Shown here: positions 15,687-31,186 of the stretch, one piece after another | Layout of the letters: every line of letters starts with the position of its first letter | Numbering within the stretch: the stretch's first letter is position 1 | NCBI GenBank assembly: GCA_964516865.1 | Contig: CAZEXD010000001.1 | Span: 1-53,085, forward strand | DNA length: 53,085 nucleotides | Origin: an uncultured Candidatus Saccharibacteria bacterium | GTDB lineage: Bacteria; Patescibacteriota; Minisyncoccia; Minisyncoccales; Staskawiczbacteraceae | Direction of reading: 5' to 3' | Notes under the pieces: model-generated | Database searches by the model: none | Seen by the model: only the letters and a program-made list of their open reading frames with translations | What the model was told of the DNA's origin: nothing | Position numbers and translations under genes: made by a program

Positions 15687-15697
15687 TCTTTTAAAAA

Positions 15698-16579: not shown

Positions 16580-17324
16580 AATAATATTTCTTTTAAGGAA
16601 AAGATTGCCCGAACCGATAAAAAAACCTCTTCGTTGGATTTATCATAAATGGAACATAAGGATAGATAAAGATACGCTAAACTTTTTAAAAAAATATTAT
16701 AATCTTCCAGAAAAAGATGTTTTTCGTCTTTTGAGAACTGGGGGAAAATTAAGCGCCGATTTTTGGTTTTGTTCCAATCCAAAAACAGAGGAAGAGGTAA
16801 TAAGATTTTATGAAGAAAATCCTTTTTATGTTTTTAATCTTATTTTTTGGCATGGTACCTCATATCAAAGAAAGTTGCGCGCAGAATTGATTGATTTGGC
16901 GACAGGAAGAGTTTTGGACTACGGCGGCGGAACAGGCGATTTGTCTTTAAAACTTGCCCAAAAGGGATTAAAGGTAGATTACGCGGACCTTCAGGGGAAA
17001 ACATTTAATTTTGCCAGAAGTTTTTTAAAAGAAAATAATCTAAATATTAATATGATTAATTTAAGTAAAACCGGAATTTCAAGGCGGTACGACACTATTT
17101 TTTGCATAGATGTTATAGAGCATGTTAAAAATCCCAAATCTTTGCTTAAAAATTTAGTTCAACATTTAAAAAAGGATGGCAGATTAATAATAACCGCTTT
17201 GCACCCCGATATATCTAAAGGGGCGCCGATGCATTTTGAAATCAATTTTGATGCGGAGGAGTATTTAAAATCGCTTGGTATGGAAAAGACGAAAGAGCCA
17301 TTTTTGTGGATTAAAAAATTCTGA
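16566..17324 (+). CDS. Class I SAM-dependent methyltransferase
   Basis: Motif I VLDYGGGTGDLSLKLAQKG; DTIFCIDVIEHV. Confidence 0.75.
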   Translation: MTINKIIFLLRKRLPEPIKKPLRWIYHKWNIRIDKDTLNFLKKYYNLPEKDVFRLLRTGGKLSADFWFCSNPKTEEEVIRFYEENPFYVFNLIFWHGTSYQRKLRAELIDLATGRVLDYGGGTGDLSLKLAQKGLKVDYADLQGKTFNFARSFLKENNLNINMINLSKTGISRRYDTIFCIDVIEHVKNPKSLLKNLVQHLKKDGRLIITALHPDISKGAPMHFEINFDAEEYLKSLGMEKTKEPFLWIKKF

Positions 17325-17347
17325 AAAACTTTAAAATTATTTCAAAA

Positions 17348-18739
17348 ATGAAAACAAAAAAATTTAGAATTTGTGTTATTGGAACAGGTTATGTCGGATT
17401 GGTGACAGGAACTTGTTTTGCTGAAATTGGTCATAGAGTTATTTGTGTAGATAATAACAGAGAAAAGATAGAAAAACTTCAAAAAGGGTTATCGCCAATT
17501 TACGAGCCCGGACTTGATAAGTTGATTGCCAAAAACAAAAAAGCAGGCAGGTTGTTTTTTGGCACAGAAATTAAAGAAGGCGTTAAAAATTCAGATGTTA
17601 TTTTTATTGCTGTTCATACTCCCACAAAAGAAAATGGAGAAACTGATTTGCGTTTTGTGGAAGCAGTGGCAAAGGAAGTGGCAAAAGCAATGCAAAACTA
17701 TAAAGTGATAGTGAGTAAAAGCACAATGCCGGTAAAAACAGGGCAGAAGATAAAAGAAATAATGAAAAAGTTTGCCGGAAAAGGGATAAATTTTGATGTA
17801 GTTTCCAATCCGGAATTTTTAAAAGAGGGCACCGCGGTTGAAGATTTTTTGAAGCCGGATAGAATTGTGATTGGAGTGGAAAGCAAAAGAGCCAAAAAGA
17901 TTATGCAAGAATTGTATAAACCGATAAGGGCGCCAATTATTTTTACCGATATTGAATCAGCCGAAATTATAAAACACGCCTGCAACGCTTTTTTAGCGAC
18001 AAAGATATCGTTTATTAATGCCATTGCCAATATTTGCGAAAAAAATGGGGCTGATGTGCAAGAAGTGGCGATGGCTATAGGATTAGATAAGAGAATAGGG
18101 AATAGTTTTTTGAGGGCGGGATTGGGGTTCGGCGGTTCTTGTCTTCCCAAAGATATTAACGCTTTTATAAAAGTGGCAGAAAAATCAGGTTATGATTTTA
18201 GACTTTTGAAAGAGGTAAAAAAAATTAATACAAAACAAAGAGAAAATTTTATTAAAAAAATAATAGAAAATTTAGAGGAATTAAAAGATAAAAAATTGGC
18301 GATATTGGGGTTATCTTTTAAACCAAATACTGATGATATGAGAGAAGCTCCTTCAATTGATGTTATCAATAAGTTAGTTGAAAAAGGGGCGATAATCAAA
18401 GCTTACGATCCTGTAGCGATAGAAAAAGCCAGAGGTATTTTCGGCAGTAAAATTATTTATTGCCTTAATCCGTATCAGGCGGTTAAAGATTCAGACGCTT
18501 TGATTATTCTAACCGATTGGGATGAATTTAAAAATATGGATATAAAGAAGATTAAAAAATTATTAAAAATGCCGATAATTTTTGACGGCAGAAATATTTT
18601 TGAGCCCCAAAAAATGGCGAAATTAGGCTTTAAATATTATTCTTTCGGCAGGCAAGGGGACAGTTCTTTCGGCAGGCAAGGGGACAGACCTGGGACTGTC
18701 CCCAACCAACATGGCAAGACCAACAAGACAATTTTATAA
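17348..18739 (+). CDS. ugd: UDP-glucose 6-dehydrogenase with element-derived C-terminal extension
   Basis: ICVIGTGYVGLVTG, GFGGSCLPKD catalytic-Cys motif, full three-domain length. The last ~30 codons (SFGRQGDS SFGRQGDRPGTVPN...) are read through a duplicated 24-mer and a REP hairpin. Confidence 0.85.
   Translation: MKTKKFRICVIGTGYVGLVTGTCFAEIGHRVICVDNNREKIEKLQKGLSPIYEPGLDKLIAKNKKAGRLFFGTEIKEGVKNSDVIFIAVHTPTKENGETDLRFVEAVAKEVAKAMQNYKVIVSKSTMPVKTGQKIKEIMKKFAGKGINFDVVSNPEFLKEGTAVEDFLKPDRIVIGVESKRAKKIMQELYKPIRAPIIFTDIESAEIIKHACNAFLATKISFINAIANICEKNGADVQEVAMAIGLDKRIGNSFLRAGLGFGGSCLPKDINAFIKVAEKSGYDFRLLKEVKKINTKQRENFIKKIIENLEELKDKKLAILGLSFKPNTDDMREAPSIDVINKLVEKGAIIKAYDPVAIEKARGIFGSKIIYCLNPYQAVKDSDALIILTDWDEFKNMDIKKIKKLLKMPIIFDGRNIFEPQKMAKLGFKYYSFGRQGDSSFGRQGDRPGTVPNQHGKTNKTIL
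18640..18687 (+). repeat. Exact tandem duplication of 24 nt (ttctttcggcaggcaaggggacag x2)
   Basis: Copies at 18640..18663 and 18664..18687; each ends with the left arm (ggggacag) of the REP hairpin. Confidence 0.95.
18680..18703 (+). repeat. REP-like hairpin, copy 1 (GGGGACAG-ACCTGGGA-CTGTCCCC)
   Basis: 8-bp GC-rich stem, 8-nt loop; identical 24-mer recurs at 19358..19381; immediately upstream of the RAYT gene. Confidence 0.9.
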
Positions 18740-19352
18740 GGGAGGATTTTGGCATATATTAAACCGAGGAATTGATAAAATGGATATTTTCCGCAGCAAA
18801 GAAGATTATAATTTTTACCTTTATAAAATAAAAGAATCTTTTAATAAATATCCGGTTGGAATTTGCGCGTTCAACTTTCTTTCAAATCACATTCATTATT
18901 TAATAAAACAAACAAGAGAAGAAATTCCACCAAATAAATTCATTGCAAGCGTTCACACAAGTTTAGGTAATTATATTAATCGGAAATATACAAGAGTTGG
19001 ACATCTGTTTCAAAATAGATGCAAGATTAAAGATATTAAAGAAGACAAACATCTTTTAGTCATATCTGTTTATATAAATTTGAATAAAGTTTTAGAAGAA
19101 TTACAAAAGAGAAAGAAAACTACTATTTTAAAAAGCGAGTTGCAAAAATTATTAAAGTCAGCCGAAATTGATCCATGGAGTAGCTATCCTGTATATTTAG
19201 GGATAAGAGAAGATGGCATTACGGAATGTGAGTTTATTTTATCGCTTTTATCAGATGATATTAAAAAAGCAAGAAAAGAATATAAAAAATTCGCCGAAGA
19301 ACTTCTTACTTCGGGTTATTTCTTAAAGACAAGAGATTTATTGTTTGAATAA
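18711..19352 (+). CDS. REP-associated tyrosine transposase (RAYT; IS200/IS605 Y1 HUH family)
   Basis: MARPTRQFYKGGFWHILNRG; HUH motif in LSNHIHYLIK; GHLFQNRCK; VYINLNKV (YI.LNP-like). Confidence 0.8.
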   Translation: MARPTRQFYKGGFWHILNRGIDKMDIFRSKEDYNFYLYKIKESFNKYPVGICAFNFLSNHIHYLIKQTREEIPPNKFIASVHTSLGNYINRKYTRVGHLFQNRCKIKDIKEDKHLLVISVYINLNKVLEELQKRKKTTILKSELQKLLKSAEIDPWSSYPVYLGIREDGITECEFILSLLSDDIKKARKEYKKFAEELLTSGYFLKTRDLLFE

Positions 19353-19357
19353 TAAAC

Positions 19358-19381
19358 GGGGACAGACCTGGGACTGTCCCC
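19358..19381 (+). repeat. REP-like hairpin, copy 2
   Basis: ggggacagacctgggactgtcccc, identical and in the same orientation as 18680..18703, 5 nt after the RAYT stop. Confidence 0.9.
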
Positions 19382-19390
19382 ATTGAACCT

Positions 19391-20323
19391 ATGTGCATAA
19401 AAAAGATATTAATTACAGGTTCCTCTGGGACGATTGGCACCCGGCTTTTTGAAAAACTTTTGGAAAAAAACTATCAGGTTGTCGGTTTTGATAAAAAGAA
19501 GAATAAGTGGTATAAACATTTAGATGAATTGACTATAAAGGGAAATCTCTTAAATAAAAAAGATTTATTAAAAATCCCCAAAGGCATTAATTTAATAATT
19601 CATTTGGCGGCTAATGCCCGCGTTTATGATTTGGTGGTAAACCCGGATTTGGCTTTGGAAAATGTGATTTCTACCTACAATATTTTAGAATTTGCGCGCA
19701 AGAATAATATAAAAAAATTTATTTTCTCTTCTAGCAGAGAAGTATACGGCAACAGAAAAAAAGCGATTGCTAAAGAAAAAGAAGTTGATATTCAGTTATG
19801 CGAAAGCCCTTACGCCGCCAGCAAAATTTCAGATGAGGCGCTGATTTATTCTTTTTCAAAATGTTATGGCATAGATTATATTATTTTTCGTTTATCCAAT
19901 GTTTATGGAATGTATGATGAGAGCGACAGATTTATTCCTTTGATGATTAGAAAAATGCGCAAGAACGAAGATGTAGAGATTTATGGCAAAAACAAGCTTT
20001 TAGATTTTACCTATATTGACGATTGCGTAGAAGGTATAATTAAGGGAATTGAAAGATTTTCTTACGCAAAAAATAACACTTTTAACATCGCCAGCGGCAA
20101 GGGCGAAAAGTTAATTAAAGTTGCCCGGCTTCTTAAAAAAAGTTTAAACAGTAAAAGCAAAATTTTCATAAAACAAAGTCGTCAAGGCGAGGTAATTCAA
20201 TTTATCGCCGATATTTCTAAAGCAAAAAGATTGTTTAATTATATACCAAAGATTAATATAAACAGAGGAGTTAAGCTTTCAACAAAATGGTATTTTCACT
20301 ATGATTCCCTTGAACAGAATTAA
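19391..20323 (+). CDS. NAD-dependent sugar epimerase/dehydratase (SDR)
   Basis: ILITGSSGTIGTRLFEKLL; catalytic YAASK. Confidence 0.8.
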   Translation: MCIKKILITGSSGTIGTRLFEKLLEKNYQVVGFDKKKNKWYKHLDELTIKGNLLNKKDLLKIPKGINLIIHLAANARVYDLVVNPDLALENVISTYNILEFARKNNIKKFIFSSSREVYGNRKKAIAKEKEVDIQLCESPYAASKISDEALIYSFSKCYGIDYIIFRLSNVYGMYDESDRFIPLMIRKMRKNEDVEIYGKNKLLDFTYIDDCVEGIIKGIERFSYAKNNTFNIASGKGEKLIKVARLLKKSLNSKSKIFIKQSRQGEVIQFIADISKAKRLFNYIPKININRGVKLSTKWYFHYDSLEQN

Positions 20324-21785
20324 AAATATTTTATTAATTGAAAAATCCGGTTCTCTTTCCGAAAAAACAATAAAAGGAAGCGTGTGGCTTCTTCTTTTAC
20401 GCGTTGTTGATCAATTTCTTCGTTTTGTAAAGATAATTATTTTAGCCAGAATTTTATCTCCAAACGACTTTGGTCTTTTTGGAGCTTCTTTGGCTGTTTT
20501 TGCTATGGCGGAATCTTTTTCTCAAACAGGTTTTCAGCAGGCTTTAATTCAAAAAAAAGAAAATGTTAAAAATTATCTTAATACAGCTTGGACTATTCAA
20601 ATAATAAGAGGCCTTATTTTATCTATTATTTTATTTATTACCGCACCGTTAGCGGCCAATTTTTTTAAAACTCCTCAGATAGCGTTGATGATAAGAATTT
20701 TAGCGCTTTCAACTTTTTGTTCTAGTTTTACCAATATTGGCTTGGTTTATTTTCAAAAAGAACTGCAAATGCATAAGTATTTTATGTATCAATCTATAGG
20801 AGGTTTGTTAGATTTTTTAGCCACTGTGACTATAGTATTAATATGGCCTACTGTGTGGGCCCTTATTTTCGGTTTCTTAATGGGCAATATTTTTAAAATT
20901 ATAATCTCTTACAAAGTACACCCTTATCGTCCAAGATTTAAAATTAGTTTTACAAAAGCAAAAGAGCTTTTTAATTTTGGAAAATGGATTTTTAGTTCCA
21001 ACATTATTGGTTTTTTTATACTTCAAGGAGACAGTATTTTTATAGGTAAATTATTAGGAATGGCGTCTCTTGGTTTTTACCAGGTGGCGTATAAAATAGC
21101 GAGTTTTTTAAATACAGAAATAATTTTTGGCACTCTTTTTCCCGCTTATTCAAAAATACAGGATAATAAAGATGCGCTTAAAAAAGCATATTTTAACACG
21201 CTTAAAATATCATTTTTTATTTTTATGCCTATGGCCGGAGGGATTTTTGTGATATCAAATGATATAATAAAAATATTTTTTGGCGATAAATGGCTCCCGG
21301 CTGCGGTTCCTTTAAAATTTTTAATATGGTCCAGCCTGTTATGGGGTATTGTGACAATAACAGCCCCTTTAATTCAAGCTGTTGGAAAGCCAAAAATAGA
21401 AACATTTTGGAACGGAGTGAGATTTGCGCTTCTGTTACTTTTTCTCTACCCATTTGTTGCTATTTATGGAATATCCGGCGCCGCTTTGGTAGTTTTATTA
21501 AGCGTTTTTGTGTCAAGTGTTGGTTTTGTATTGTCGGCACTAAAGATTATTGGGGCAAAGATTAAAGATTTTTGGAAGATAATGGCAATTCCTTTTATTT
21601 CTACAATAATAATGATATTAATTGTTTGGCAAAGCGATTTAATATTTTTTGGGAGGATTAATCTTTTTTACAAAATAATATTGGGCGGGTTAATTTATTT
21701 TTTATTGATGTATATCGCAGAGAAAAAAAATTATTATCAAATAACCCCGCTTTTTAAAAGAATTTTATTTTTGTTTAAAGAATAA
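20301..21785 (+). CDS. wzx: Second Wzx-type flippase / polysaccharide biosynthesis protein (MOP superfamily)
   Basis: 494 aa multi-pass membrane protein; KGSVWLLLLRVVDQFLRFVKIIILARILSPNDFGLF is the typical family N-terminus. Confidence 0.7.
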   Translation: MIPLNRIKNILLIEKSGSLSEKTIKGSVWLLLLRVVDQFLRFVKIIILARILSPNDFGLFGASLAVFAMAESFSQTGFQQALIQKKENVKNYLNTAWTIQIIRGLILSIILFITAPLAANFFKTPQIALMIRILALSTFCSSFTNIGLVYFQKELQMHKYFMYQSIGGLLDFLATVTIVLIWPTVWALIFGFLMGNIFKIIISYKVHPYRPRFKISFTKAKELFNFGKWIFSSNIIGFFILQGDSIFIGKLLGMASLGFYQVAYKIASFLNTEIIFGTLFPAYSKIQDNKDALKKAYFNTLKISFFIFMPMAGGIFVISNDIIKIFFGDKWLPAAVPLKFLIWSSLLWGIVTITAPLIQAVGKPKIETFWNGVRFALLLLFLYPFVAIYGISGAALVVLLSVFVSSVGFVLSALKIIGAKIKDFWKIMAIPFISTIIMILIVWQSDLIFFGRINLFYKIILGGLIYFLLMYIAEKKNYYQITPLFKRILFLFKE

Positions 21786-21820
21786 GACTTTTAATTACAA
21801 AAGAATAATAAATCAAAAAA

Positions 21821-24007
21821 ATGAAAAACATTAAAATTTTAGCTACTATTGGGCCTTCCTCATTTAAAAAGGAGATTATTCAAAAAATGGATTCTTTTGG
21901 CGTAGATTTGTTCCGGCTTAATCTTTCTCATACAAAAATTGAAGATTTTAAAAACTTTGTTAAAGAAATTAAGCAATGGACAAAAAAACCAATTTGTATT
22001 GACACGGAAGGGGCTCAAATTAGAACCGGTAAATTTAAAAAAGACAAAATTTTGGCTCAGAATAATTCTATTGTTTCTTTGGTTCCTGCCGAAATTTTGG
22101 GCGACAAAAAAAACATTCCTCTTTATCCTATTATTCCCCACAAAGTTTTAAAAGAAGGAGATATTCTTTATTTGGATTTTCATAATGTAATAATTCAGGT
22201 GATAAAAATTAACGGCAAGGAGGTTAAAGCCAGAATATTGGAAGGAGGATGGGTGGGGTCAAACAAAGGAGTAAATATGGATAGACCTCTTGATTTGCCG
22301 GCTTTTACGAAGAAGGACTTGGCAATTTTTCAAATAGCAAAAAAAGAAGAAATGAATTATATCGCTTTATCTTTCGCCTCCAGAAAAGAAGACATTGAAG
22401 AATTAAGAAAAATTTTTCAATACCCCATTTTTGTTATTAGCAAAATAGAAAGCAGGAAGGGAGTAGAAAATGTGGAAGAAATTTGTCGATATAGCGATGC
22501 TATTTTAATTGACAGAATGGATTTGTCTCGCGATATACCCTTGCAAAAAATAGGCTTGGCCCAAAAATCTATTTTAGATACCGTAAAAAAAATTAAGAAA
22601 CCTGTTTTTGTGGCTACAAACCTTTTGGATGCAATGATGGAAAACTTTCAACCGACAAGGAGCGAAATTAATGATATCACCAATATTTTATTATCAGGCG
22701 CCTCAGGTTTGGTTTTGGCGGCGGAAACAGCCATTGGAAAACATCCAGCCGAGTGTGTCAGAATGGCAAGTGGGATAATAAAAGAGGTAATAAGATATCA
22801 AAAGGAAAAAGATAAAAAATATTTAACTTCGATTTACGATTATAATTTAATTGAACCTCACGGAGGCGAATTGGTGCAAAATATTATTAATAAAGAAGCG
22901 ATTCAAAACATCGATAAATTGCCAAAATTAAAAATTTCAAAAGAGACAATATTGGATGTAGTTCAAATTGTGGAAGGAACGTATTCGCCGCTGAGAGGAT
23001 TTATGGATTTCAAGAATTTAATTTCGGTTTTAGATAATTATAGGCTTTCAAATGGAATAATTTGGACTTTGCCGATTTTGTTGCAAGCGACTAAAAAAGA
23101 GATTAAATTTAAAGAAGGGGAAACCGTCGCTCTTTTGGAAGAAACTGGAAAAGAGGTATTTGCTTTAATAAATGTTTCTGAAATTAAGAAAATTGATTTA
23201 GAAAAAATAGCCAAAAAGTGGTTTGGGACAACTGATAAATCGCACCCTGGGGTGGTTAATTTCAAAAAGAAAGGAGATTATATAATAGCTGGAGAAGTTT
23301 TTTTAATTGAGAAACCAAATTCTTACGCTGAGTTTTATGCTTTAACCCCGAAGCAAAGTAGGGAAATTTTTAAGAACTTTGGTTGGCAAAAAATTGTAGG
23401 GTTTCATACCAGGAATGTTATTCACCGAGGGCATGAATTTATCCAGAAAGAAGCTTTAAAGAAAGCCGACGCCGACGCTTTGTTTATAAGTCCTGTTATT
23501 GGTCCCAAGAAAAAAGGTGATTTTACTGCTCAAGCGATTGTTTCGGCATACGAAGTGATGATTAATAAAAAATACTATCATCCTTATTCGGCAATTATTG
23601 GAGCATTTGCGACATATTCAAGATATTCAGGACCGAGAGAGGCGGTTTTTACCGCTTTGTGCAGAAAAAATTTCGGATGTAGTCATTTTATTGTTGGTCG
23701 TGATCATACGGGTGTAGGCAATTTTTATAAACCGGATGCCTCGCAGAAGATATTTCAAAAAATAGGCGATATTGGTATTGTTCCCTTATTTTTTAACACT
23801 GCTTATTTTTGCAAAAAATGCGGTCAGGTGACAGATTATTGTAGGCACGGAGAGGAATCAAAAATAACTATTAGCGGTACAAAAATAAGGAATTGTTTGA
23901 TAAACAATGAAAAAATACCCGATTATCTGATGCGAAATGATATTAGTAAAATGCTCAAAGATATGTACAAATCTAATAAAGATATTTTATTTGAAAAAGG
24001 AGAATAA
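21821..24007 (+). CDS. sat: Fusion protein: pyruvate-kinase-like barrel (about aa 1-335) + complete sulfate adenylyltransferase (ATP sulfurylase, about aa 340-728)
   Basis: PK motifs ILATIGPSS, FRLNLSHT, ISKIESRKGVEN, ATNLLDAM, PTRSEINDITN, LAAETAIGKHP. Sat motifs GFHTRNVIHRGHEF (QxRNxxHxxH-like) and IVGRDHTGVG. One uninterrupted ORF. Confidence 0.8.
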   Translation: MKNIKILATIGPSSFKKEIIQKMDSFGVDLFRLNLSHTKIEDFKNFVKEIKQWTKKPICIDTEGAQIRTGKFKKDKILAQNNSIVSLVPAEILGDKKNIPLYPIIPHKVLKEGDILYLDFHNVIIQVIKINGKEVKARILEGGWVGSNKGVNMDRPLDLPAFTKKDLAIFQIAKKEEMNYIALSFASRKEDIEELRKIFQYPIFVISKIESRKGVENVEEICRYSDAILIDRMDLSRDIPLQKIGLAQKSILDTVKKIKKPVFVATNLLDAMMENFQPTRSEINDITNILLSGASGLVLAAETAIGKHPAECVRMASGIIKEVIRYQKEKDKKYLTSIYDYNLIEPHGGELVQNIINKEAIQNIDKLPKLKISKETILDVVQIVEGTYSPLRGFMDFKNLISVLDNYRLSNGIIWTLPILLQATKKEIKFKEGETVALLEETGKEVFALINVSEIKKIDLEKIAKKWFGTTDKSHPGVVNFKKKGDYIIAGEVFLIEKPNSYAEFYALTPKQSREIFKNFGWQKIVGFHTRNVIHRGHEFIQKEALKKADADALFISPVIGPKKKGDFTAQAIVSAYEVMINKKYYHPYSAIIGAFATYSRYSGPREAVFTALCRKNFGCSHFIVGRDHTGVGNFYKPDASQKIFQKIGDIGIVPLFFNTAYFCKKCGQVTDYCRHGEESKITISGTKIRNCLINNEKIPDYLMRNDISKMLKDMYKSNKDILFEKGE

Positions 24008-24014
24008 GACAAAA

Positions 24015-24539
24015 ATGATAATTTGGTTTACCGGGCTTTCCGGTTCGGGCAAAACAACATTGGCAAGATATTTAAAAGAGATTTTAGAAAGAAATGGTTT
24101 TTCTGTTTTTCATATTGATGGAGATGTTTTTCGCACTCAGTATAAGAAAGAAAACAGATTTTGTCGCAAAGACATTATAGAAAATAATAGGAATATAATT
24201 TCTTATTGTTCGCAATTGAAAAAAAATTATGATTTTTTGCTTGTTTCGGTTATCGCTCCCTATCAAAAGACGAGAGACGAGGCAAGAAAAATTTTTCAAA
24301 AGGAATATTTGGAAATATTTTTAAATTGTCCCTTGGAGATTTTGATAAAAAATGATGTAAAAGGATTGTACAAAAAAGCGAAAAAAGGAGAAATTAAAAA
24401 TCTAATTGGTTTCTCCCAAAACTCTCCTTATGAAAAACCACAAAAACCAGATTTAGAAATAAGGACAGATAAAACCAATATAGAGGAGTCCTTAAAGCAG
24501 ATAATAGATTTAATTAAGAAAAATGGAATCTCAATCTGA
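24015..24539 (+). CDS. cysC: Adenylylsulfate (APS) kinase
   Basis: MIIWFTGLSGSGKTTLARYL P-loop, about 175 aa, directly after sat; ATG 24015 preferred over the track's 23937 start. Confidence 0.8.
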   Translation: MIIWFTGLSGSGKTTLARYLKEILERNGFSVFHIDGDVFRTQYKKENRFCRKDIIENNRNIISYCSQLKKNYDFLLVSVIAPYQKTRDEARKIFQKEYLEIFLNCPLEILIKNDVKGLYKKAKKGEIKNLIGFSQNSPYEKPQKPDLEIRTDKTNIEESLKQIIDLIKKNGISI

Positions 24540-25269
24540 AAAAATAATATTAGTTGCAGATTATGGTCGGTCAGGGCAGGGCTGGCTTTCTTATATGCTC
24601 TGTTATATTTTAAATGCCCGATTTATTGAACCATATGATTTTTTAAAAGGTAGAAAGTATTCCAAATCCGATTATGTTTTTAACCTCACTCAGGGAAATT
24701 TGCCGGACAGAGAAAAGACTTGTTATTCAATGGTGGTGAAAACTCACGAGTTTCCCGCACCCGATTTTAATTTAACAGATAAGGTGATTTTTTTAACTCG
24801 CGACCCGAGAGATGTGGCTGTTTCTGCTTATTATATGCACTTATTTTATGAAAAAAAATACAGGAAATTAAGAAGTTTTTTAGGAAGGATAGTGAGTTTA
24901 ATAAGAAGTATTAGAATAATAAATTATATTCGCACAGCTAAGGGTTGGAAAAAGTATTTTCAAAAATGGCAAGAAGTGCCGTATTATTTTGTAAGATACG
25001 AAGATTTATTGTTAAAAACTAAAGAAACCTTAAATGGTATTTTGGATTACCTTGGCGTTTCGGTAAAAGAGAATATTATTGAAGAAGCCGTTAATAAATT
25101 TTCTTTTGAAAAAATAACCGGTAGAAAAAAAGGAGAAGAAGACCCAAACAACCCCGAATTTAGAAAAGGTATTATTGGAGATTACAAAAATCATTTTTCA
25201 AAATCAGAATTAATAATCTTTAAATTAATCTGCGGGAAAGAAGCAAAAAAGGCAGGTTATAATTTATAA
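24523..25269 (+). CDS. PAPS-dependent sulfotransferase (Sulfotransfer_1-like)
   Basis: 5'-PSB loop-like YGRSGQGWL, 3'-PB motif LTRDPRDVAVSAYY, and RKGIIGDYKNHFS (RKGxxGDWKNxF-type). Confidence 0.85.
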   Translation: MESQSEKIILVADYGRSGQGWLSYMLCYILNARFIEPYDFLKGRKYSKSDYVFNLTQGNLPDREKTCYSMVVKTHEFPAPDFNLTDKVIFLTRDPRDVAVSAYYMHLFYEKKYRKLRSFLGRIVSLIRSIRIINYIRTAKGWKKYFQKWQEVPYYFVRYEDLLLKTKETLNGILDYLGVSVKENIIEEAVNKFSFEKITGRKKGEEDPNNPEFRKGIIGDYKNHFSKSELIIFKLICGKEAKKAGYNL

Positions 25270-25271
25270 AT

Positions 25272-26012
25272 ATGATTAATTTTCAAGAATACGCTGATTA
25301 TTACGATTTGTTATATCAAGACAAGGATTACAAAAAAGAATGTGATTTTTTGCTTTCCGTTATTAAAAAGCATTCTCCCATAGAAGTAAGAAGTATTTTA
25401 AGTTTGGGTTGCGGAACAGCCAATCACGATATTATTTTAGCCAGAAAAGGATTTAAAATTACAGGTATAGATAGGTCAAAAAAGATGATTAAAATTGCGG
25501 AGGAAAAAGCAAAAAAAGAAAATTTAGACATTGAATTTAAAATAGCCGATATTACAGATTTTAAAATTAATAAAAAACTTGATTTTGCAATGGCAATGTT
25601 TAATGTTGTTGGTTATTTAACAGAAAATATGCAGATGGAAAAAATGTTAAAGAATATAAATAGAGTTTTAAAAAAGAGCGCTTTGTTTGTTTTTGATTGC
25701 TGGTACGGGCCGGCAGTTTTAAAAAGCCGTCCCGAAAATAGAGAAAAAGAAATTAGAAAAGGATTTATAAGAAAGACAACTCAAAAATTAGATATAGAAA
25801 AAAGTATTATTGATATAAATTTTGAAATGTTAGAGAATGGAAAATTTTTAGCCAAGGAAAACCACAAAATGAGATTTTGGTACCTAAAAGAATTAGAATA
25901 TTTTTTGGAAGAAAATGATTTTGAATTGATAAAAGTTTGCAATTTTTTAGATTTGAATTCAAAAATTTCAGAAGATAATTGGAATATTTTTGTCATAGCC
26001 AGAAAAAAATAA
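25272..26012 (+). CDS. Class I SAM methyltransferase (TylM1/DesVI-like layout; possible sugar N-methyltransferase)
   Basis: YADYYDLLYQDKDYKKE...ILSLGCGTANHDIILARKGFKITGIDRSKKMI; MFNVVGYL. Confidence 0.75.
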   Translation: MINFQEYADYYDLLYQDKDYKKECDFLLSVIKKHSPIEVRSILSLGCGTANHDIILARKGFKITGIDRSKKMIKIAEEKAKKENLDIEFKIADITDFKINKKLDFAMAMFNVVGYLTENMQMEKMLKNINRVLKKSALFVFDCWYGPAVLKSRPENREKEIRKGFIRKTTQKLDIEKSIIDINFEMLENGKFLAKENHKMRFWYLKELEYFLEENDFELIKVCNFLDLNSKISEDNWNIFVIARKK

Positions 26013-27214
26013 TGAAAAAGAACATAGGCATTTTATTTTCATCTTCCCGTAAAATGGGAGTTTTCCAGTATGGATTAAGCATTGTTGAGGCATTAGTAAA
26101 TTTTACTGACAATTTTGATTTTACTATTTTATATTTTGATTTAGAAAACCCGAAAGATTTTTTAAAAGTTAAAAGTTTAGAAAAAGCAAAACTTGTTTCT
26201 TTAAATGGCAAGCAAAACAATTTTTTAGAAAAGATTAAATTTGCCTTAAATTGTTTTTTGGCAAAACCAGTATTTATAACCAATAAAAAAAACAAAGAGA
26301 TATTAAAGGAGGCAAAAATAGACCTTCTAATTATTCCTTTTCCGCTTTTGCTGGGCTTTGAAAACAAAATACCCTATATTGTTTCGGTTCCAGATATGAT
26401 GCACAGGTATTATTCTTATTTTTCCGAGTATTCTTTCAAAAATAGAATTATTCGTGATATAGTTTATAAAGTTGCAGTAAAACATTCAATTTTAACTATT
26501 GTTGATTCTCAGTGGGGGAGCAATGACTTGCAGAAATTTTACAAAACCCCAAAAGAAAAAATCCATATTGTCCCTTATTTGCCGCCAGGTTATGTTTGGC
26601 AATATAAAGATATGGATTTAATTGAGGCGACTAATTTGTTAAGAAAATATAATTTGCCTGAAAAATTTATTTTTTATCCAGCGCAATTCTGGGAGCATAA
26701 AAACCACTTAAATCTTATAAAATCAATAAAAATATTAGAAGAAAAATTTAAAGAAATTATTCCCTTAGTTTTAGTGGGTGACGAGAAAGCCAATTCTAAA
26801 AATTATAATAATATAATAAAGTTAGCAGAAAGATTAAATATAAAAAACAGAGTATGGCACTTAGGTTATGTTGAGGACAAAGAAATGGTGGCATTATATA
26901 AAAAAGCCATTGCTTTAGTTTTTCCTACCTTAATTGGTCCTACCAACATTCCGCCTTTGGAATCAATGGTTTTGGGTACTCCTGTTCTATGTTCCAATTT
27001 ATTTGCTATGCCAGAACAGGTTGGCGATGCTGGTATTCTTTTTGACCCCAAAAGCCCAGAAGATATGGCAGAGAAAATTTACAAGGTTTGGACAGATGAA
27101 GATTTAAGAAAGAAAATGATTGAAAAAGGATATCAAAAAGTAAAAAATCTTACATTTGAGAATTACGCTCAAATGTGGATTTCTGCAGTTAAAAAAGCAT
27201 TAAGTAATTTATGA
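26012..27214 (+). CDS. Family 4 (GT-B) glycosyltransferase
   Basis: C-terminal LVFPTLIGPTNIPPLESMVLGTPVLCSNLFAMPEQVGDAGILFDP; TAATG overlap with the upstream stop favours ATG 26012. Confidence 0.75.
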   Translation: MKKNIGILFSSSRKMGVFQYGLSIVEALVNFTDNFDFTILYFDLENPKDFLKVKSLEKAKLVSLNGKQNNFLEKIKFALNCFLAKPVFITNKKNKEILKEAKIDLLIIPFPLLLGFENKIPYIVSVPDMMHRYYSYFSEYSFKNRIIRDIVYKVAVKHSILTIVDSQWGSNDLQKFYKTPKEKIHIVPYLPPGYVWQYKDMDLIEATNLLRKYNLPEKFIFYPAQFWEHKNHLNLIKSIKILEEKFKEIIPLVLVGDEKANSKNYNNIIKLAERLNIKNRVWHLGYVEDKEMVALYKKAIALVFPTLIGPTNIPPLESMVLGTPVLCSNLFAMPEQVGDAGILFDPKSPEDMAEKIYKVWTDEDLRKKMIEKGYQKVKNLTFENYAQMWISAVKKALSNL

Positions 27215-27633
27215 CAAAAGAAACTGAAACAATAAAAGATAAAAAAGGCAATATTATTGCCATAATTATTTACAACGATTTTCATAAAGAAGGGACTAAT
27301 TTTTTCACTCCTTCTGATTTTTCCCAACAATTGGCTTTTATTTCAAGAAAAGCCGGTGAAAAAATTCCAGCCCATACTCATAATATTATCAAGAGAGATA
27401 TTTTTTATACCCAAGAAACTTTATTTATTAAAAAAGGAAAAATAAAAGTGAATTTTTACAATAACGATAAAAATTATTTTGACTCAAGAATTCTAAATGA
27501 AGGTAATACCATTCTTTTGGCGTCGGGTGGACACGGTTTTGAATTTTTAGAAGACAGCGAGTTAATAGAAATAAAACAAGGTCCCTATCTAAACGATGCT
27601 GACAAGGTTAGATTTAATGGTATTGAAAAATAA
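27211..27633 (+). CDS. Small cupin-fold sugar-nucleotide-modifying protein (WbuC / ketoisomerase-like), copy 1
   Basis: 140 aa; PAHTHN (HxH) and GGHGFEFLEDSELIEIKQGPY; paralogue of 30770..31183; ATGA overlap with the upstream gene. Confidence 0.5.
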   Translation: MTKETETIKDKKGNIIAIIIYNDFHKEGTNFFTPSDFSQQLAFISRKAGEKIPAHTHNIIKRDIFYTQETLFIKKGKIKVNFYNNDKNYFDSRILNEGNTILLASGGHGFEFLEDSELIEIKQGPYLNDADKVRFNGIEK

Positions 27634-27636
27634 AAT

Positions 27637-28758
27637 ATGATACCGGTGAATAAACCATTATTTATAAGCGATGAAAAAAAGTATTTAGCTGAATGTATTG
27701 ATTCTGGATGGATTTCATCTGAGGGTCCTTTTGTTAAAGAATTTGAAGAAAAATTCAGTAAATATGTTGGAAAAAAATATGGTGTTGCTGTTTCTTCGGG
27801 AACAGCGGCTTTGGAAGTGGCTGTCGGCGCTATTGGTTTAAAACCGGGAGAGGAAGTCATAATGCCAACTTTTACAATAATTTCTTGCGCTTTGGCTGTT
27901 GTAAATTACGGCGGAGTGCCAGTTTTTGTTGATTCAGAGCCAGATACCTGGAATATGGACCCAAACAAGATAGAAGAAAAAATTACCAAAAAAACAAAAG
28001 CGATAATGCCAGTTCATATTTATGGTCACTCTTGCGATATGGATAAGATTTTAAGAATTGCTAAAAAATATAAATTAAAAATTATTGAAGATGCGGCCGA
28101 AGCCCATGGTGCAGAATATAAAGGGGAAAAATGCGGTTCTTTTGGAGATATTTCCTGTTTTAGTTTTTACGCCAATAAAATAATTTCTTGCGGAGAAGGC
28201 GGAATGGTTTTGACTGACAATAAAAATTATTTTGAAAAAGCCAAAGATTTAAGAAATTTGGCTTTTGGCAAGAAAAAAAGATTTATTCACAAAGAACTTG
28301 CCAGAAATTATAGAATGACAAATTTACAGGCGGCAGTGGGAGTAGCCCAGCTTAAAAATATTGAAAAATTAATAAAAATAAAACGAAATAACGCAAAAAC
28401 CTATACAGAATTATTAAAAAACATTAAGGGATTGCAGTTGCCGGTAGAAAAAGATTATGCGAAAAATGTTTATTGGATGTACGGAATTGTTTTGGATAAA
28501 TCAACCGGTTTTACCGCCGAAACTTTTGCTGAAAAATTAGCAAAAAAAGGTATTCAAACAAGACCATTTTTTTATCCTTTACATCTGCAACCTTGCTTAC
28601 AAAAATTTATCAAAAAAACAAAAGAAAAATATCCAGTTGCTGAAAAATTGGCAAAACAAGGTCTTTATTTGCCCTCCGGTCTTGGCTTGAAAAAAGAGGA
28701 AATTGAGATAATATGTAGTATTATTAAAGAATTGTTAAAAAATGATAGACCTAACTAA
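27637..28758 (+). CDS. DegT/DnrJ/EryC1-family PLP aminotransferase, GDP-perosamine-synthase-like
   Basis: MIPVNKP...KYLAECIDSGWISSEGPFV..., SFYANKIISCGEGGMV (PLP Lys), YRMTNLQAAVGVAQL resemble Per/RfbE as I recall it; adjacent to gmd. Confidence 0.7.
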   Translation: MIPVNKPLFISDEKKYLAECIDSGWISSEGPFVKEFEEKFSKYVGKKYGVAVSSGTAALEVAVGAIGLKPGEEVIMPTFTIISCALAVVNYGGVPVFVDSEPDTWNMDPNKIEEKITKKTKAIMPVHIYGHSCDMDKILRIAKKYKLKIIEDAAEAHGAEYKGEKCGSFGDISCFSFYANKIISCGEGGMVLTDNKNYFEKAKDLRNLAFGKKKRFIHKELARNYRMTNLQAAVGVAQLKNIEKLIKIKRNNAKTYTELLKNIKGLQLPVEKDYAKNVYWMYGIVLDKSTGFTAETFAEKLAKKGIQTRPFFYPLHLQPCLQKFIKKTKEKYPVAEKLAKQGLYLPSGLGLKKEEIEIICSIIKELLKNDRPN

Positions 28759-29683
28759 AAAAAAGATTTTAATTACAGGAGCCAATGGTTTTGTGGGAAA
28801 GCATTTAGTTAAAAACTTGTTAGAAAAGAGAAAGGTTCCAAAAGAAAATCTATATTTGCCCACTATTGAAGAATTAGATTTAAGATATCGGGAAAATTGC
28901 CAAAAAGCCGTCAAAGGACAGGAGATAGTTATTCATTTGGCGGCAAAGGTTGGTGGTATTGGATTTAATTTAGAAAAACCCGGAGAGCTGTTTTATGATA
29001 ATTTGATAATGGGAGCTCATTTAATGGAAGCGGCAAGACAAGCCGGGGTGGAAAAATTTGTTTCAATAATAACAGTTTGCGCTTATCCAAAATTTACACC
29101 CGTTCCTTTTAAAGAAGAAAATCTCTGGAATGGTTATCCTGAAGAAACAAACGCTCCTTATGGTTTGGCAAAAAAAATGCTTTTGGTGCAAGGTCAGGCA
29201 TATAGAAAACAATATAATTTTAACGCAATTTCTCTTTTACCTCTGAATATGTATGGACCGGGAGATACTTTTGACCCGGAAAGGTCTCATGTGATAGCGG
29301 CGCTGATTAAAAAAGTTTACGAAGCAAAAAGAGATAAGAAAAACTTCATTGAGGTGTGGGGGACAGGTAAAGCGACCAGAGGATTTTTATATGTGGAAGA
29401 CGGCGCCGAAGGAATTTTGTTGGCAACAGAAAAATATGACAAGCCAGAACAGGTTAATCTGGGTTCTGATTTTGAAATATCAATAAAAGATTTGGCTGAA
29501 TTAATTTGTAAACTTATGGCTTTTAAAGGCGAAATCCGCTGGAACAAAACAAAACCGGATGGTCAGCCAAGAAGGTATTTAGATGTTTCCCGCGCCAAAA
29601 AAGAATTTGGTTTTGAGGCAAAGACAGATTTTGTTGAAGGATTAAGAAAGACAATTAAATGGTATGAAGAAAATCCTATTTAA
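28742..29683 (+). CDS. fcl: GDP-L-fucose synthase (GDP-4-keto-6-deoxymannose 3,5-epimerase/4-reductase)
   Basis: [44 protein letters not shown]; next to gmd. Confidence 0.8.
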
Positions 29684-29715
29684 CTTTAATTACAATTAAA
29701 ATTAATTTATTAAAT

Positions 29716-30777: not shown

Positions 30778-31183
30778 GATGAAAACTGAAAAAATAATAG
30801 ATAAAGATTTAACTTTGGCAATTATAATTAGAGACGCTGACTGGGAAGAAGGATTAAATTTTGCTTCAGCCGAGGAAGATTACCAACAAGTGGGATTTTG
30901 GAATTATAATAAAGGTCAAAAATTACAGGCACATTTGCATTTGATTGCGCCTCGGCAGGTATTAAAAACACAGGAGATTATTTTTGTAAAACAAGGAAAA
31001 ATGAGAGCTGATATTTATTCAGAAAAGGAAAAATTTTTACAATCAATTGAATTAAAAGCAGGGGATACCTGCATCTTCCTTAATGGCGGCCATGGTTATG
31101 AGATATTAGAAAACAATACAAAGGTTTTAGAAATTAAAAATGGTCCCTATATTGGTCCAGATAAAGACAGAAAAAGAATATAA
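30770..31183 (+). CDS. Small cupin-fold protein, copy 2 (paralogue of 27211..27633)
   Basis: QAHLHL (HxH), [24 protein letters not shown]; same length and motif spacing as copy 1. Confidence 0.5.
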
Positions 31184-31186
31184 TTT

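What the first reader, a model, noticed from the sequence alone, without database searches (positions are those of the whole stretch)
21821..24007. Pyruvate-kinase-like barrel fused in-frame to a complete ATP sulfurylase
One 728-aa ORF joins two domains that I do not know as a described architecture.
- About aa 1-335 carry most pyruvate kinase A/B-domain signatures: ILATIGPSS, FRLNLSHT, ISKIESRKGVEN, ATNLLDAM, PTRSEINDITN, LAAETAIGKHP.
- They lack the C-terminal allosteric domain and have IDRMDLSRDIP where canonical enzymes have RGDLG.
- About aa 340-728 are a full sulfate adenylyltransferase (HTRNVIHRGH, GRDHTG).

APS formation is thermodynamically unfavourable and APS kinase releases ADP. 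A tethered PEP-dependent kinase could regenerate ATP or remove ADP locally and pull PAPS synthesis. This would be useful in an energy-limited fermenter. Alternatively the barrel has a new PEP-dependent activity.
Basis: partly seen in the sequence, partly recalled or inferred. Interest (0 to 1): 0.78.

Follow-up and report, generated by a model that had tools for sequence, protein, structure and literature searches.

The report
Pyruvate-kinase barrel fused to ATP sulfurylase
One gene in a sugar-coat gene cluster joins the catalytic core of the glycolytic enzyme pyruvate kinase to the enzyme that activates sulfate; the fusion recurs in many bacterial phyla, I found no description of it, and it most likely recycles ADP to ATP on the spot to keep 'active sulfate' (PAPS) production running.

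Summary
Window 21821-24007 (+) is one 728-aa ORF. It holds a pyruvate-kinase A+B barrel without the allosteric C-domain, a ~20-aa linker, then a complete PUA_2 + ATP-sulfurylase enzyme.

It is not an assembly chimera:
- The same architecture appears in all 119 other clusters among the top 120 protein hits.
- It is a single ORF in 79 of the 80 best genome loci, from more than 15 phyla.

The PK barrel belongs to a distinct clade that keeps every canonical catalytic residue. Its own signature is DTEGAQxR / DRGDLS / TN / AAE. The clade occurs as PK-ATPS, PK-ATPS-APS kinase, PK-APS kinase, or alone, usually beside an APS kinase gene. Neighbours are sulfotransferases and polysaccharide genes, not sulfate-reduction genes.

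In the window the fusion sits in a ~36-kb glycan island. An APS kinase gene follows 7 nt downstream (start codon 8 nt after the stop), then a PAPS-type sulfotransferase.

Best reading (confidence about 0.6): a PAPS-supply module with built-in PEP-driven ADP-to-ATP recycling, matching the PK/PEP system chemists add to in-vitro PAPS cascades. No activity was measured.

Nine literature searches and two reviews of ATPS architectures do not mention it. Verdict: a new variant of a known kind; interest about 0.66.

The parts
21821..24007 (+). PK-barrel / ATP sulfurylase fusion gene (728 aa)
   Evidence: ORF list and translation; Pfam and NCBIfam; AlphaFold2 model with pLDDT 89.4 and pTM 0.74
21824..22759 (+). 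Pyruvate-kinase A+B domains (aa 2-313 by Pfam; the last barrel helix runs to about aa 329). Catalytic residues present: R32 N34 S36 H37 D61 T62 R68 K149 K208 E210 D234 T266 R280 E302.
   Evidence: Pfam PF00224 1.7e-63; PDB alignments to S. aureus and mosquito PK; invariant columns; residue table; Foldseek to PKM2/PykF over about 340 columns at rmsd about 3 A
22001..22300 (+). B-domain 'lid' of the PK part (about aa 61-160), an all-beta insertion between barrel strand 3 and helix 3
   Evidence: Secondary structure of the model; alignment to canonical PKs
22517..22519 (+). Codon ATG = M233, where the clade and all canonical PKs have the Gly of the alpha6' R-G-D-L motif. This change is specific to this sequence.
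   Evidence: role of the alpha6' helix from PMC3467265
22808..22852 (+). Poorly conserved linker (about aa 330-344) that replaces the PK C-domain
   Evidence: 26% mean pairwise identity against about 51-54% in the two domains; pLDDT dip at about aa 331-340
22850..23311 (+). PUA-like N-terminal domain of ATP sulfurylase (aa 344-497)
   Evidence: Pfam PF14306 9.4e-40
23336..23959 (+). ATP-sulfurylase catalytic domain (aa 506-713), with FHTRNVIHRGH (H529 where solved enzymes have Gln), GRDHTG, and a CxxC...CxH zinc-type motif
   Evidence: Pfam PF01747 3e-74; PDB 8a8d 4.9e-95 and 1v47; Foldseek TM 0.92, rmsd 2.2 A; motif census
24015..24539 (+). APS kinase (cysC), 174 aa. The likely true start is ATG 24015, 8 nt after the fusion's stop codon (7 nt intergenic), with AAAGGAG at 23996-24002. 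The longest-ORF start at 23937 is probably too early.
   Evidence: Pfam APS_kinase 3.3e-43; TIGR00455 171 bits against a cut-off of 138.7
24523..25269 (+). PAPS-dependent sulfotransferase (Sulfotransfer_1), overlapping the end of cysC by 17 nt
   Evidence: Pfam 5.2e-23; PDB matches to cytosolic SULTs at 2e-12
9931..45664 (.). Surrounding Wzx/Wzy-type glycan biosynthesis island. It holds a Wzy_C/TPR ligase, two flippases, GT2/GT4/GT10 transferases, UDP-Glc dehydrogenase, GDP-Man dehydratase plus GDP-fucose synthase, three DegT aminotransferases, two methyltransferases, Bac_transf and a PglF-like dehydratase.
   Evidence: Pfam and NCBIfam scans

Best explanation
The gene encodes a two-enzyme 'active sulfate' supply module for glycan sulfation.

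Proposed steps:
1. The C-terminal half is a normal Thermus/Methanothermococcus-type ATP sulfurylase: ATP + sulfate -> APS + PPi.
2. The APS kinase gene immediately downstream converts APS to PAPS: APS + ATP -> PAPS + ADP.
3. The next gene, a SULT-like sulfotransferase, uses the PAPS on a sugar of the polysaccharide built by the surrounding cluster.
4. The N-terminal half is a catalytically competent pyruvate-kinase core (A barrel plus B lid) whose allosteric and tetramerising C-domain has been replaced by the sulfurylase. It uses PEP to rephosphorylate the ADP released by APS kinase.

This recycling does two things. [quoted passage not shown] The net reaction is sulfate + ATP + PEP -> PAPS + PPi + pyruvate.

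Shown here: domain content, conservation of catalytic residues, recurrence of the fusion, and its gene context.
Inferred: that the PK part is active with PEP and ADP, and that this benefits PAPS synthesis.
For: 1. Both domains are complete and confidently folded.
2. All canonical PK ligand residues are invariant across 42 full-length homologues and about 120 representatives clustered at 50% identity: Arg/Asn/Ser/His of RxNxSH, Asp61/Thr62, Arg68, Lys149, Lys208, Glu210, Asp234, Thr266, Arg280 and Glu302.
3. The PK half is as conserved as the ATPS half: 53.5% against 50.9% mean pairwise identity.
4. The PK-barrel clade is linked to PAPS synthesis in four independent gene arrangements:
   - PK-ATPS, 86 of the top 150 representatives;
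   - PK-ATPS-APSK, three of the 150, plus P0030, P0037, P0093 and P0104;
   - PK-APSK without ATPS, P0156 and P0238;
   - stand-alone barrels, of which 37 of 71 have a same-strand APS kinase gene within 150 nt.
5. Among the two ORFs on either side of the fusion in 79 genome loci, the commonest families are APS_kinase, Sulfotransfer_1/3, CysQ-like Inositol_P and polysaccharide genes. CysH and sulfite reductase are not among the 25 commonest families listed.
6. In the window, fusion, cysC and sulfotransferase are separated by 7 nt or overlap.
7. Biochemical precedent from PMC9885120: adding PK and PEP was necessary for PAPS synthesis by PAPSS1 in vitro, because it removes ADP. [quoted passage not shown]
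Against: - No activity data exist for any member.
- The clade carries invariant departures from canonical PK close to the active site: DTKGPEIR->DTEGAQIR, ARGDLG->DRGDLS, TQ->TN, SGE->AAE. The last removes the Ser whose hydroxyl lies at the ATP gamma-phosphate site. Substrate specificity or cation dependence may therefore differ.
- This particular protein has Met in place of the conserved Gly of the alpha6' helix, which could weaken its PK activity.
- Recycling ADP does not change the unfavourable equilibrium of the sulfurylase step itself.
- I could not check whether the host genomes also encode a canonical pyruvate kinase.
Confidence: 0.6

Rival explanations
1. The barrel is an active PEP-dependent phosphotransferase, but with a changed acceptor or reaction. 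Examples would be phosphorylating AMP, PAP or another nucleotide of the sulfation cycle, or another PEP-dependent chemistry, rather than simple ADP-to-ATP recycling.
For: The clade carries invariant substitutions around the active site, at positions equivalent to rabbit-muscle K114E, P116A, E117Q, A292D, G297S, Q328N, S361A and G362A. The Ser lost at 361/362 normally sits at the ATP gamma-phosphate site. The fused sulfurylase also has an altered sulfate pocket, FHTRN for FQTRN and GRDHTG for GRDHAG.
Against: Every residue known to bind PEP, Mg2+, the monovalent-cation site and the nucleotide phosphates is retained: R32, N34, S36, H37, D61, T62, R68, K149, K208, E210, D234 and T266. A separate APS kinase is nearly always present, so the barrel is not needed for 3'-phosphorylation. 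The only ADP-producing partner, APS kinase, is its most constant neighbour.
Confidence: 0.17
2. The barrel is a non-catalytic regulatory or scaffolding domain. It would sense PEP or ADP (carbon and energy state), or provide A-A dimer contacts, much as the APS-kinase-like C-terminal domain of fungal ATP sulfurylase became an allosteric PAPS sensor.
For: There is precedent for a degenerate enzyme domain acting as an allosteric module on ATPS (PMC4220642). The inter-subunit Arg of the PK A-A interface (R280) is conserved. The window protein carries the unusual G233M change.
Against: The catalytic Lys, Glu, Asp and Thr and the whole B-domain lid are invariant across highly diverged members, and conservation equals that of the ATPS half. 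Degenerate sensor domains normally lose such residues. Stand-alone barrels and PK-APSK fusions exist without any ATPS to regulate.
Confidence: 0.12
3. The fused PK is simply the organism's housekeeping glycolytic pyruvate kinase. It happens to be fused to Sat in a reduced genome, with no specific role in sulfation.
For: The closest relatives are CPR/Patescibacteria (Staskawiczbacteria, 72% identity), which have small genomes. I could not test for a second, canonical PK.
Against: The fusion and the stand-alone clade members sit in sulfation and polysaccharide clusters in more than 15 phyla, including organisms with 4-14 Mb assemblies. The clade lacks the regulatory C-domain and forms a group separate from the canonical 470-490-aa PKs.
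Confidence: 0.08
4. Assembly chimera, or a frameshift-masked pair of adjacent genes.
For: None found.
Against: An identical protein lies on a separate Logan contig. 79 of 80 genome loci and all 119 other clusters among the top 120 hits have the same continuous ORF. GC content is even across the gene.
Confidence: 0.01

Closest known systems
Canonical pyruvate kinase (EC 2.7.1.40; e.g. E. coli PykF 1PKY, S. aureus 3T05, PKM1/2)
   Same: Same A-domain TIM barrel and B-domain lid. About 35-40% identity, about 340 aligned columns at rmsd about 3 A. All PEP, Mg2+, cation-site and nucleotide-phosphate ligands are present.
   Different: No C-terminal allosteric or tetramer domain; it is replaced by the sulfurylase. 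Clade-specific motifs are DTEGAQxR, DRGDLS, ATN and LAAE. Scores fall below all NCBIfam PK cut-offs. The genomic context is sulfation, not glycolysis.
Homodimeric zinc-type ATP sulfurylase (Sat) of Methanothermococcus thermolithotrophicus (8A8D) and Thermus thermophilus (1V47)
   Same: 40% and 38% identity, TM 0.92-0.93, rmsd about 2.1 A. The HxxH motif, the GRDH motif and the CxxC...CxH motif are all present.
   Different: Carries an N-terminal 330-aa PK barrel. His replaces the Gln of FQTRN in 163 of 164 fused sequences, and Thr usually replaces the Ala of GRDHAG.
Bifunctional PAPS synthases (Aquifex ATPS-APSK 2GKS; metazoan APSK-ATPS PAPSS1/2) and the diatom/oomycete APSK-ATPS-pyrophosphatase triple fusion
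   Same: The same logic: enzymes that pull or complete sulfate activation are joined physically to ATPS (PMC3734648 and PMC4220642). Some relatives of this protein are PK-ATPS-APSK in one chain.
   Different: The added helper here acts on ADP/ATP through PEP, not on PPi or APS. In the window APS kinase is a separate gene. Neither review lists a PK partner.
GTPase-coupled sulfate adenylyltransferase CysDN / NodPQ
   Same: Functionally analogous idea: APS synthesis is tied to the spending of a second high-energy phosphate (background knowledge; mentioned as a third class in PMC3734648).
   Different: The folds are unrelated (PAPS-reductase-like CysD plus EF-Tu-like CysN). Coupling there is allosteric and mechanistic, through GTP hydrolysis. 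Here it would work through the substrate and product pools, or by channelling.
Engineered PAPS cascades with PK/PEP ATP regeneration
   Same: Same set of activities: ATPS + APSK + PK + PEP. PK was needed to avoid ADP accumulation and to obtain PAPS (PMC9885120).
   Different: That is an artificial mixture of separate enzymes. Here the combination is encoded naturally, as one chain or as an operon.

Membership tests
Pyruvate kinase (PF00224 + PF02887; TIGR01064) | A-domain (beta/alpha)8 barrel with inserted B-domain lid | tested here: met
   PF00224 1.7e-63 over model positions 2-328 of 328; Foldseek to PKM2/PykF; model secondary structure
Pyruvate kinase (PF00224 + PF02887; TIGR01064) | Catalytic and ligand residues (rabbit-muscle R72, N74, S76, D112, T113, R119, K206, K269, E271, D295, T327) | tested here: met
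   R32, N34, S36, D61, T62, R68, K149, K208, E210, D234 and T266 are present and invariant or nearly invariant. The mapping to rabbit numbering is by motif alignment and from memory.
Pyruvate kinase (PF00224 + PF02887; TIGR01064) | C-terminal alpha/beta domain (allosteric site, C-C tetramer interface) | tested here: not met
   No PF02887 hit. The sequence after aa about 330 is linker followed by PUA_2.
Pyruvate kinase (PF00224 + PF02887; TIGR01064) | Curated whole-protein score cut-off | tested here: not met
   TIGR01064 scores 265.9 against a cut-off of 306.4. All other PK models also fall below their cut-offs.
Pyruvate kinase (PF00224 + PF02887; TIGR01064) | alpha6' helix motif RGDLG(I/V/M)E | tested here: not met
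   The window has RMDLSRD and the clade has RGDLSR(D/E). Asp is retained, the second Gly is replaced by Ser, and the first Gly is replaced by Met in the window only.
Pyruvate kinase (PF00224 + PF02887; TIGR01064) | PEP + ADP -> pyruvate + ATP activity | not testable with these tools
   Needs an enzyme assay.
ATP sulfurylase / sulfate adenylyltransferase, Sat type (PF14306 + PF01747; TIGR00339, NF003166) | PUA-like domain plus catalytic nucleotidylyltransferase domain, above curated cut-offs | tested here: met
   NF003166 scores 409.2 against 387 and TIGR00339 scores 334 against 322.95; Pfam; 8a8d at 4.9e-95
ATP sulfurylase / sulfate adenylyltransferase, Sat type (PF14306 + PF01747; TIGR00339, NF003166) | Signature motifs QxRNxxHxxH and GRDHAG | tested here: inconclusive
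   RN, HxxH and GRDH are present. However, Gln is replaced by His (H529) and Ala by Thr (T630), whereas all five best solved ATPS have FQTRN and GRDHAG.
ATP sulfurylase / sulfate adenylyltransferase, Sat type (PF14306 + PF01747; TIGR00339, NF003166) | ATP + sulfate -> APS + PPi activity | not testable with these tools
   Inferred from homology and from the adjacent APS kinase and sulfotransferase genes.
Bifunctional PAPS synthase (ATPS and APS kinase in one chain) | APS kinase domain (PF01583) in the same polypeptide | tested here: not met
   In the window cysC is a separate ORF that starts 8 nt after the stop codon. The feature is met in relatives P0030, P0037, P0093 and P0104.
CysDN/NodPQ GTPase-coupled sulfurylase | CysD (PAPS_reduct-like) and CysN (EF-Tu-like GTPase) subunits | tested here: not met
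   No such Pfam or NCBIfam hits in the fusion or among the scanned ORFs of the window.

The most novel reading that the evidence does not exclude
The C-domain-less PK barrels form a previously unrecognised, dedicated third component of prokaryotic PAPS synthesis, found in more than 15 phyla. In the fused form, nascent ATP made from PEP would be handed directly to a sulfurylase with a remodelled sulfate pocket (His for Gln, Thr for Ala). Sulfate activation would then be effectively PEP-driven. That would be a third solution to the unfavourable APS equilibrium, alongside pyrophosphatase pull and the CysN GTPase.
Probability: 0.3. Interest if true: 0.8.

Novelty: new variant of a known kind. Interest (0 to 1): 0.66.

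Why it matters
Three reasons.

1. **Sulfate activation.** APS formation is one of the most unfavourable steps in central metabolism. The known ways around it are PPi hydrolysis, APS phosphorylation and GTP coupling. A natural, widespread coupling to a PEP-driven ATP regenerator would add a new entry to that list. It would also give a glycolytic enzyme core a second, dedicated job.

2. **Sulfated glycans in uncultured lineages.** The fusion marks glycan-sulfation clusters in many uncultured groups, including CPR, Omnitrophota, Planctomycetota and marine Bacteroidota. It could therefore serve as a genomic marker for bacterial sulfated polysaccharides.

3. **Biocatalysis.** PAPS supply is the cost bottleneck in enzymatic synthesis of heparin and chondroitin. 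A single polypeptide, or a three-domain relative, that makes PAPS from sulfate and PEP with catalytic amounts of adenine nucleotide would be directly useful.

The hypothesis can be tested with one recombinant protein and a standard coupled assay.

Tried and rejected
- **Single-sequence genome scan.** The scan of genome contigs with the protein alone found nothing. Repeating it with alignment A1 gave 556 confirmed stretches.
- **Assembly chimera or frameshift.** Rejected.
- **Local composition anomaly or tRNA-linked island at the gene.** None found.
- **'PK motif RGDLG lost, so the domain is dead'.** Rejected. The clade has RGDLS with an invariant Asp, and only the Gly-to-Met change is private to this sequence.
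- **Assimilatory sulfate reduction context.** CysH and sulfite reductase are not among the 25 commonest neighbour families listed.
- **ATPS genes near the PK-APSK fusions.** None within the 8-11 kb loci available.
- **Is the His-for-Gln change confined to fused sulfurylases?** No. One unfused ATPS directly upstream of a stand-alone PK has FHTRN (L144) and another has FQTRN (L129). The meaning of the change stays open.
- **Literature.** Nine full-text searches and two reviews of ATPS architecture gave no description of a PK-ATPS or PK-APSK protein.
  - Reading model coordinates to measure the distance between active sites, or modelling the oligomer.
Full report
**1. Observation**

Window 21821-24007 (+) is a single ATG-started ORF of 728 codons with no internal stop. 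Pfam finds three domains:
- a full-length pyruvate-kinase barrel domain, PF00224, at aa 2-313, matching model positions 2-328 of 328, E = 1.7e-63;
- a PUA_2 domain at aa 344-497;
- an ATP-sulfurylase domain at aa 506-713.

There is no PK_C domain. NCBIfam places the C-terminal half above the curated cut-offs of two sulfate adenylyltransferase models. The N-terminal half hits every pyruvate-kinase model but scores below their cut-offs, as expected when the roughly 140-aa C-domain is absent.

An AlphaFold2 model built on 42 homologues is confident (mean pLDDT 89.4, pTM 0.74). In Foldseek the C-terminal half superposes on the ATP sulfurylases of Methanothermococcus thermolithotrophicus and Thermus thermophilus (TM 0.92-0.93, rmsd about 2.1 A). 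The N-terminal half superposes on the A+B domains of PKM2/PykF (about 340 columns, rmsd about 3 A). No solved chain covers both halves.

**2. The join is real and common**

- The identical protein is encoded on a separately assembled Logan contig.
- In the 5.8-billion-protein collection, all 119 other clusters among the top 120 hits (46-73% identity, full length) have the same PK + PUA_2 + ATP-sulfurylase content. Four of them add a C-terminal APS kinase.
- A scan of one genome per GTDB species confirmed 556 stretches. The best 80 are all full-length matches. They come from CPR/Patescibacteria (Staskawicz-, Nealson-, Colwell- and Saccharibacteria), Bacteroidota, Ignavibacteria, Bdellovibrionota, Omnitrophota, Verrucomicrobiota, Planctomycetota including anammox genera, Chloroflexota, Acidimicrobiia, Alphaproteobacteria, Elusimicrobia, Marinimicrobia, Nitrospinota, Gemmatimonadota and Acidobacteria.
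- With my own ORF calling, 79 of those 80 loci carry both halves in one ORF.
- The closest relative (72% identity) is from a Candidatus Staskawiczbacteria MAG, so the window is probably from that CPR lineage.
- Sources name these proteins only 'sulfate adenylyltransferase' or 'pyruvate kinase'.

**3. Gene context**

In the window the fusion lies in a co-directional run of genes inside a glycan island of about 36 kb (9.9-45.7 kb). The island contains:
- a Wzy_C/TPR ligase and two Wzx-type flippases;
- GT2, GT4 and GT10 (fucosyl-) transferases;
- UDP-glucose dehydrogenase, GDP-mannose dehydratase and GDP-fucose synthase;
- three DegT aminotransferases and two methyltransferases;
- a Bac_transf initiating transferase and a PglF-like dehydratase.

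Immediately downstream of the fusion is an APS kinase gene. The longest ORF starts inside the fusion, but the conserved protein starts at ATG 24015, which is 8 nt after the TAA stop and is preceded by AAAGGAG. That 174-aa product passes the TIGR00455 cut-off. A SULT-like, PAPS-dependent sulfotransferase follows, overlapping cysC by 17 nt.

The same association holds elsewhere. Among the two ORFs downstream of the fusion in 79 loci, the commonest Pfam families are APS_kinase (29), Sulfotransfer_1 (17) and Sulfotransfer_3 (14). Upstream they are Sulfotransfer_3 (25), Sulfotransfer_1 (19), APS_kinase (8) and CysQ-like Inositol_P (6), followed by polysaccharide genes. PAPS reductase and sulfite reductase are not among the 25 commonest families listed. 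The module therefore feeds sulfation, not sulfur assimilation or dissimilation.

**4. The PK barrel is a distinct, sulfation-linked clade**

I searched 1.84 billion 50%-identity representatives with the PK part alone. The top 150 were classified as follows:
- 86 PK-ATPS;
- 3 PK-ATPS-APSK;
- 2 PK-APSK with no sulfurylase (P0156, P0238);
- about 25-30 complete stand-alone barrels of 324-360 aa;
- single cases of PK-CBS and phosphodiesterase-PK-ATPS;
- ordinary 470-490-aa pyruvate kinases only at the bottom of the list.

The alternative architectures are each most similar to PK-ATPS members, whereas the canonical PKs group with one another.

A residue table shows two things. Both groups keep R32, N34, S36, H37, D61, R68, K149, S184, K208, E210, R232, D234, T266, R280, E282 and E302. 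By motif alignment and textbook knowledge, these correspond to the PEP, Mg2+, monovalent-cation and nucleotide-phosphate ligands of rabbit-muscle PK. The sulfation-linked clade, however, has its own invariant signature:

| Position | Sulfation-linked clade | Canonical PKs retrieved |
|---|---|---|
| cation-site loop | D[TS]EG[AS]QxR | DLQGPKxR |
| alpha6' helix | DRGDLS | ARGDLG |
| after the catalytic Thr | TN | TQ |
| before the conserved Glu | AAE | S[GAE]E |

The PK half is at least as conserved as the sulfurylase half (53.5% against 50.9% mean pairwise identity). The linker is not conserved (26%). This pattern indicates an active enzyme rather than a decaying or purely structural domain.

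From PMC3467265:
- The alpha6' helix is conserved in all PKs and is contacted across the A-A dimer interface by the Arg of PTRAE. That Arg is R280 here and is invariant.
- The Ser of SGE places its hydroxyl at the ATP gamma-phosphate site. That Ser is Ala in this clade.

From memory, Thr at the position after Asp61 and Thr after Arg68 are typical of K+-dependent PKs, whereas the Glu/Lys switch position is Gln here. Cation dependence is therefore uncertain.

**5. The most constant partner is APS kinase**

A metagenome scan seeded with 16 stand-alone barrels returned 80 loci: 71 stand-alone PK ORFs and 9 fusions.
- In 37 of the 71, a same-strand APS kinase gene lies within 150 nt. This holds for 20 of the 35 loci that have at least 600 nt on both sides.
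- Several others have cysC 0.7-1.6 kb away, with a TauE-family permease in between.
- Two loci have an unfused sulfurylase gene directly upstream of the PK (L129, L144).

These loci are related to one another and come mostly from marine samples, so the counts are not independent events. Even so, taken with the PK-APSK and PK-ATPS-APSK fusions, they tie the barrel to the only step of PAPS synthesis that releases ADP.

**6. Mechanism proposed**

Steps:
1. ATPS: ATP + sulfate -> APS + PPi.
2. CysC: APS + ATP -> PAPS + ADP.
3. PK barrel: ADP + PEP -> ATP + pyruvate.
4. Sulfotransferase: PAPS + glycan-OH -> glycan-O-sulfate + PAP.

Net for steps 1-3: sulfate + ATP + PEP -> PAPS + PPi + pyruvate.

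The benefit is kinetic as well as energetic. [quoted passage not shown] In an engineered cascade, PAPS was practically missing unless PK/PEP removed the ADP (PMC9885120).

What is shown here: the domains, the residue conservation, the recurrence and the gene context. What is inferred: PK activity, its acceptor, and any channelling. I put the confidence at about 0.6.

**7. Rivals**

- **Altered acceptor or new PEP-dependent chemistry (0.17).** Kept alive by the clade-specific active-site substitutions and by the altered sulfate pocket of the fused sulfurylase.
- **Non-catalytic sensor or scaffold (0.12).** There is a precedent in the fungal APSK-like allosteric domain. The complete conservation of the catalytic residues and the existence of stand-alone and PK-APSK forms argue against it.
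- **Housekeeping PK fused by accident (0.08).** Unlikely given the clade's consistent sulfation context and its presence in large genomes. I could not scan whole genomes for a second PK.
- **Assembly artefact.** Excluded for practical purposes.

**8. Caveat specific to this window**

Of the 42 aligned full-length homologues, only this protein has Met (ATG, 22517-22519) for the first Gly of R-G-D-L. Its closest relatives (71-73% identity) have Gly. The contacts made by that Gly in canonical PKs are through the backbone. The change may be tolerated, but it could lower PK activity in this particular organism.

**9. An unexplained feature of the sulfurylase half**

All five best-matching solved sulfurylases read FQTRN and GRDHAG. 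Of 164 PK-fused sequences with the motif, 163 read FH[TS]RN. For the second motif, 145 read GRDHTG, 10 have Ala and 6 have Ser. From memory of the yeast ATPS-APS structure, that Gln side chain and that Ala amide bind the sulfate group. The His form also occurs in one unfused sulfurylase next to a stand-alone PK (L144), while another such neighbour has Gln (L129). The change is therefore associated with the PK partnership but is not strictly tied to fusion. Its meaning is open; possibilities include sulfate affinity or APS release.

**10. Comparison with what is known, and novelty**

Reviews of ATPS architectures list six forms: monofunctional ATPS, APK-ATPS, APK-ATPS-pyrophosphatase, ATPS-APK, APR-ATPS and the GTPase-coupled class. 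Neither review contains the word 'pyruvate'. Nine full-text searches found no description of a PK-ATPS or PK-APSK protein.

- The protein is a member of the Sat-type ATP sulfurylase family by curated cut-offs.
- Its N-terminal half works like, and is homologous to, pyruvate kinase. It fails the family's definitions on the C-domain, the curated score and the exact alpha6' motif. It is best called a PK-barrel clade rather than 'a pyruvate kinase'.
- The whole is a new variant of a known kind: a sulfate-activating multi-enzyme with an attached 'pulling' helper. The helper is of a type I did not find reported.

**11. Verdict**

Interest is 0.66. The feature is widespread, I found no description of it, it is easy to test, and it is of practical value for PAPS biocatalysis. 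The components themselves are familiar, and no biochemistry exists yet.

Noticed in passing
window 23405-23407 (H529) and 23708-23710 (T630); also P0002-P0264: PK-fused ATP sulfurylases have FH[TS]RN in 163 of 164 sequences with the motif, and mostly GRDHTG. All five best solved ATPS have FQTRN and GRDHAG. Both positions are sulfate ligands in yeast ATPS (from memory). The significance is unknown.
   Followed up: partly
window 22517-22519: Met replaces the otherwise invariant first Gly of the PK alpha6' R-G-D-L motif. It is unique to this sequence among the 42 aligned homologues, including relatives at 71-73% identity.
   Followed up: partly
window 23937-24539: The longest-ORF start of cysC (23937) overlaps the fusion by 71 nt. 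The conserved start is ATG 24015, with a Shine-Dalgarno-like AAAGGAG at 23996-24002, so the annotation should use 24015.
   Followed up: yes
window 9931-45664: A large Wzx/Wzy-type glycan island. It has genes for GDP-fucose synthesis, a GT10 fucosyltransferase on the minus strand (34880-35899), three DegT aminotransferases, two methyltransferases and the sulfation module. This implies a methylated, sulfated, fucose- and amino-sugar-containing surface polysaccharide in a probable CPR bacterium.
   Followed up: partly
window 18711-19352: A 213-aa ORF inside the glycan cluster with a weak IS200/REP-associated tyrosine-transposase-like match. Pfam Y1_Tnp gives 1.3e-6. NCBIfam NF047646 gives 28.6 bits, below its cut-off of 80.
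   Followed up: no
window 6028-9366: A 1112-aa ORF with no Pfam family, in a stretch of higher GC (0.42-0.44, against about 0.31 in the rest of the window).
   Followed up: no
window 50654-51736: An rve-type integrase / IS transposase (HTH_32 + rve + rve_3) near the end of the window.
   Followed up: no
P0236 (1151 aa), P0136 (478 aa), P0231 (1051 aa): Other unusual PK architectures surfaced: type I phosphodiesterase/nucleotide pyrophosphatase-PK-PUA_2-ATPS, PK barrel-CBS, and a canonical-type PK-PK-adenylate kinase protein.
   Followed up: no
L085 2313-2996; L088-L095: In one group of marine loci a TauE/SafE-family anion permease gene sits between the stand-alone PK barrel and APS kinase. It may be the sulfate importer of the module.
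   Followed up: no
P0128, P0161, P0172, P0193: Clade-signature PK barrels with C-terminal tails of 157-301 aa that match no Pfam family and do not match the sulfurylase by phmmer. They may be frameshifted fusions or further unknown partner domains.
   Followed up: no
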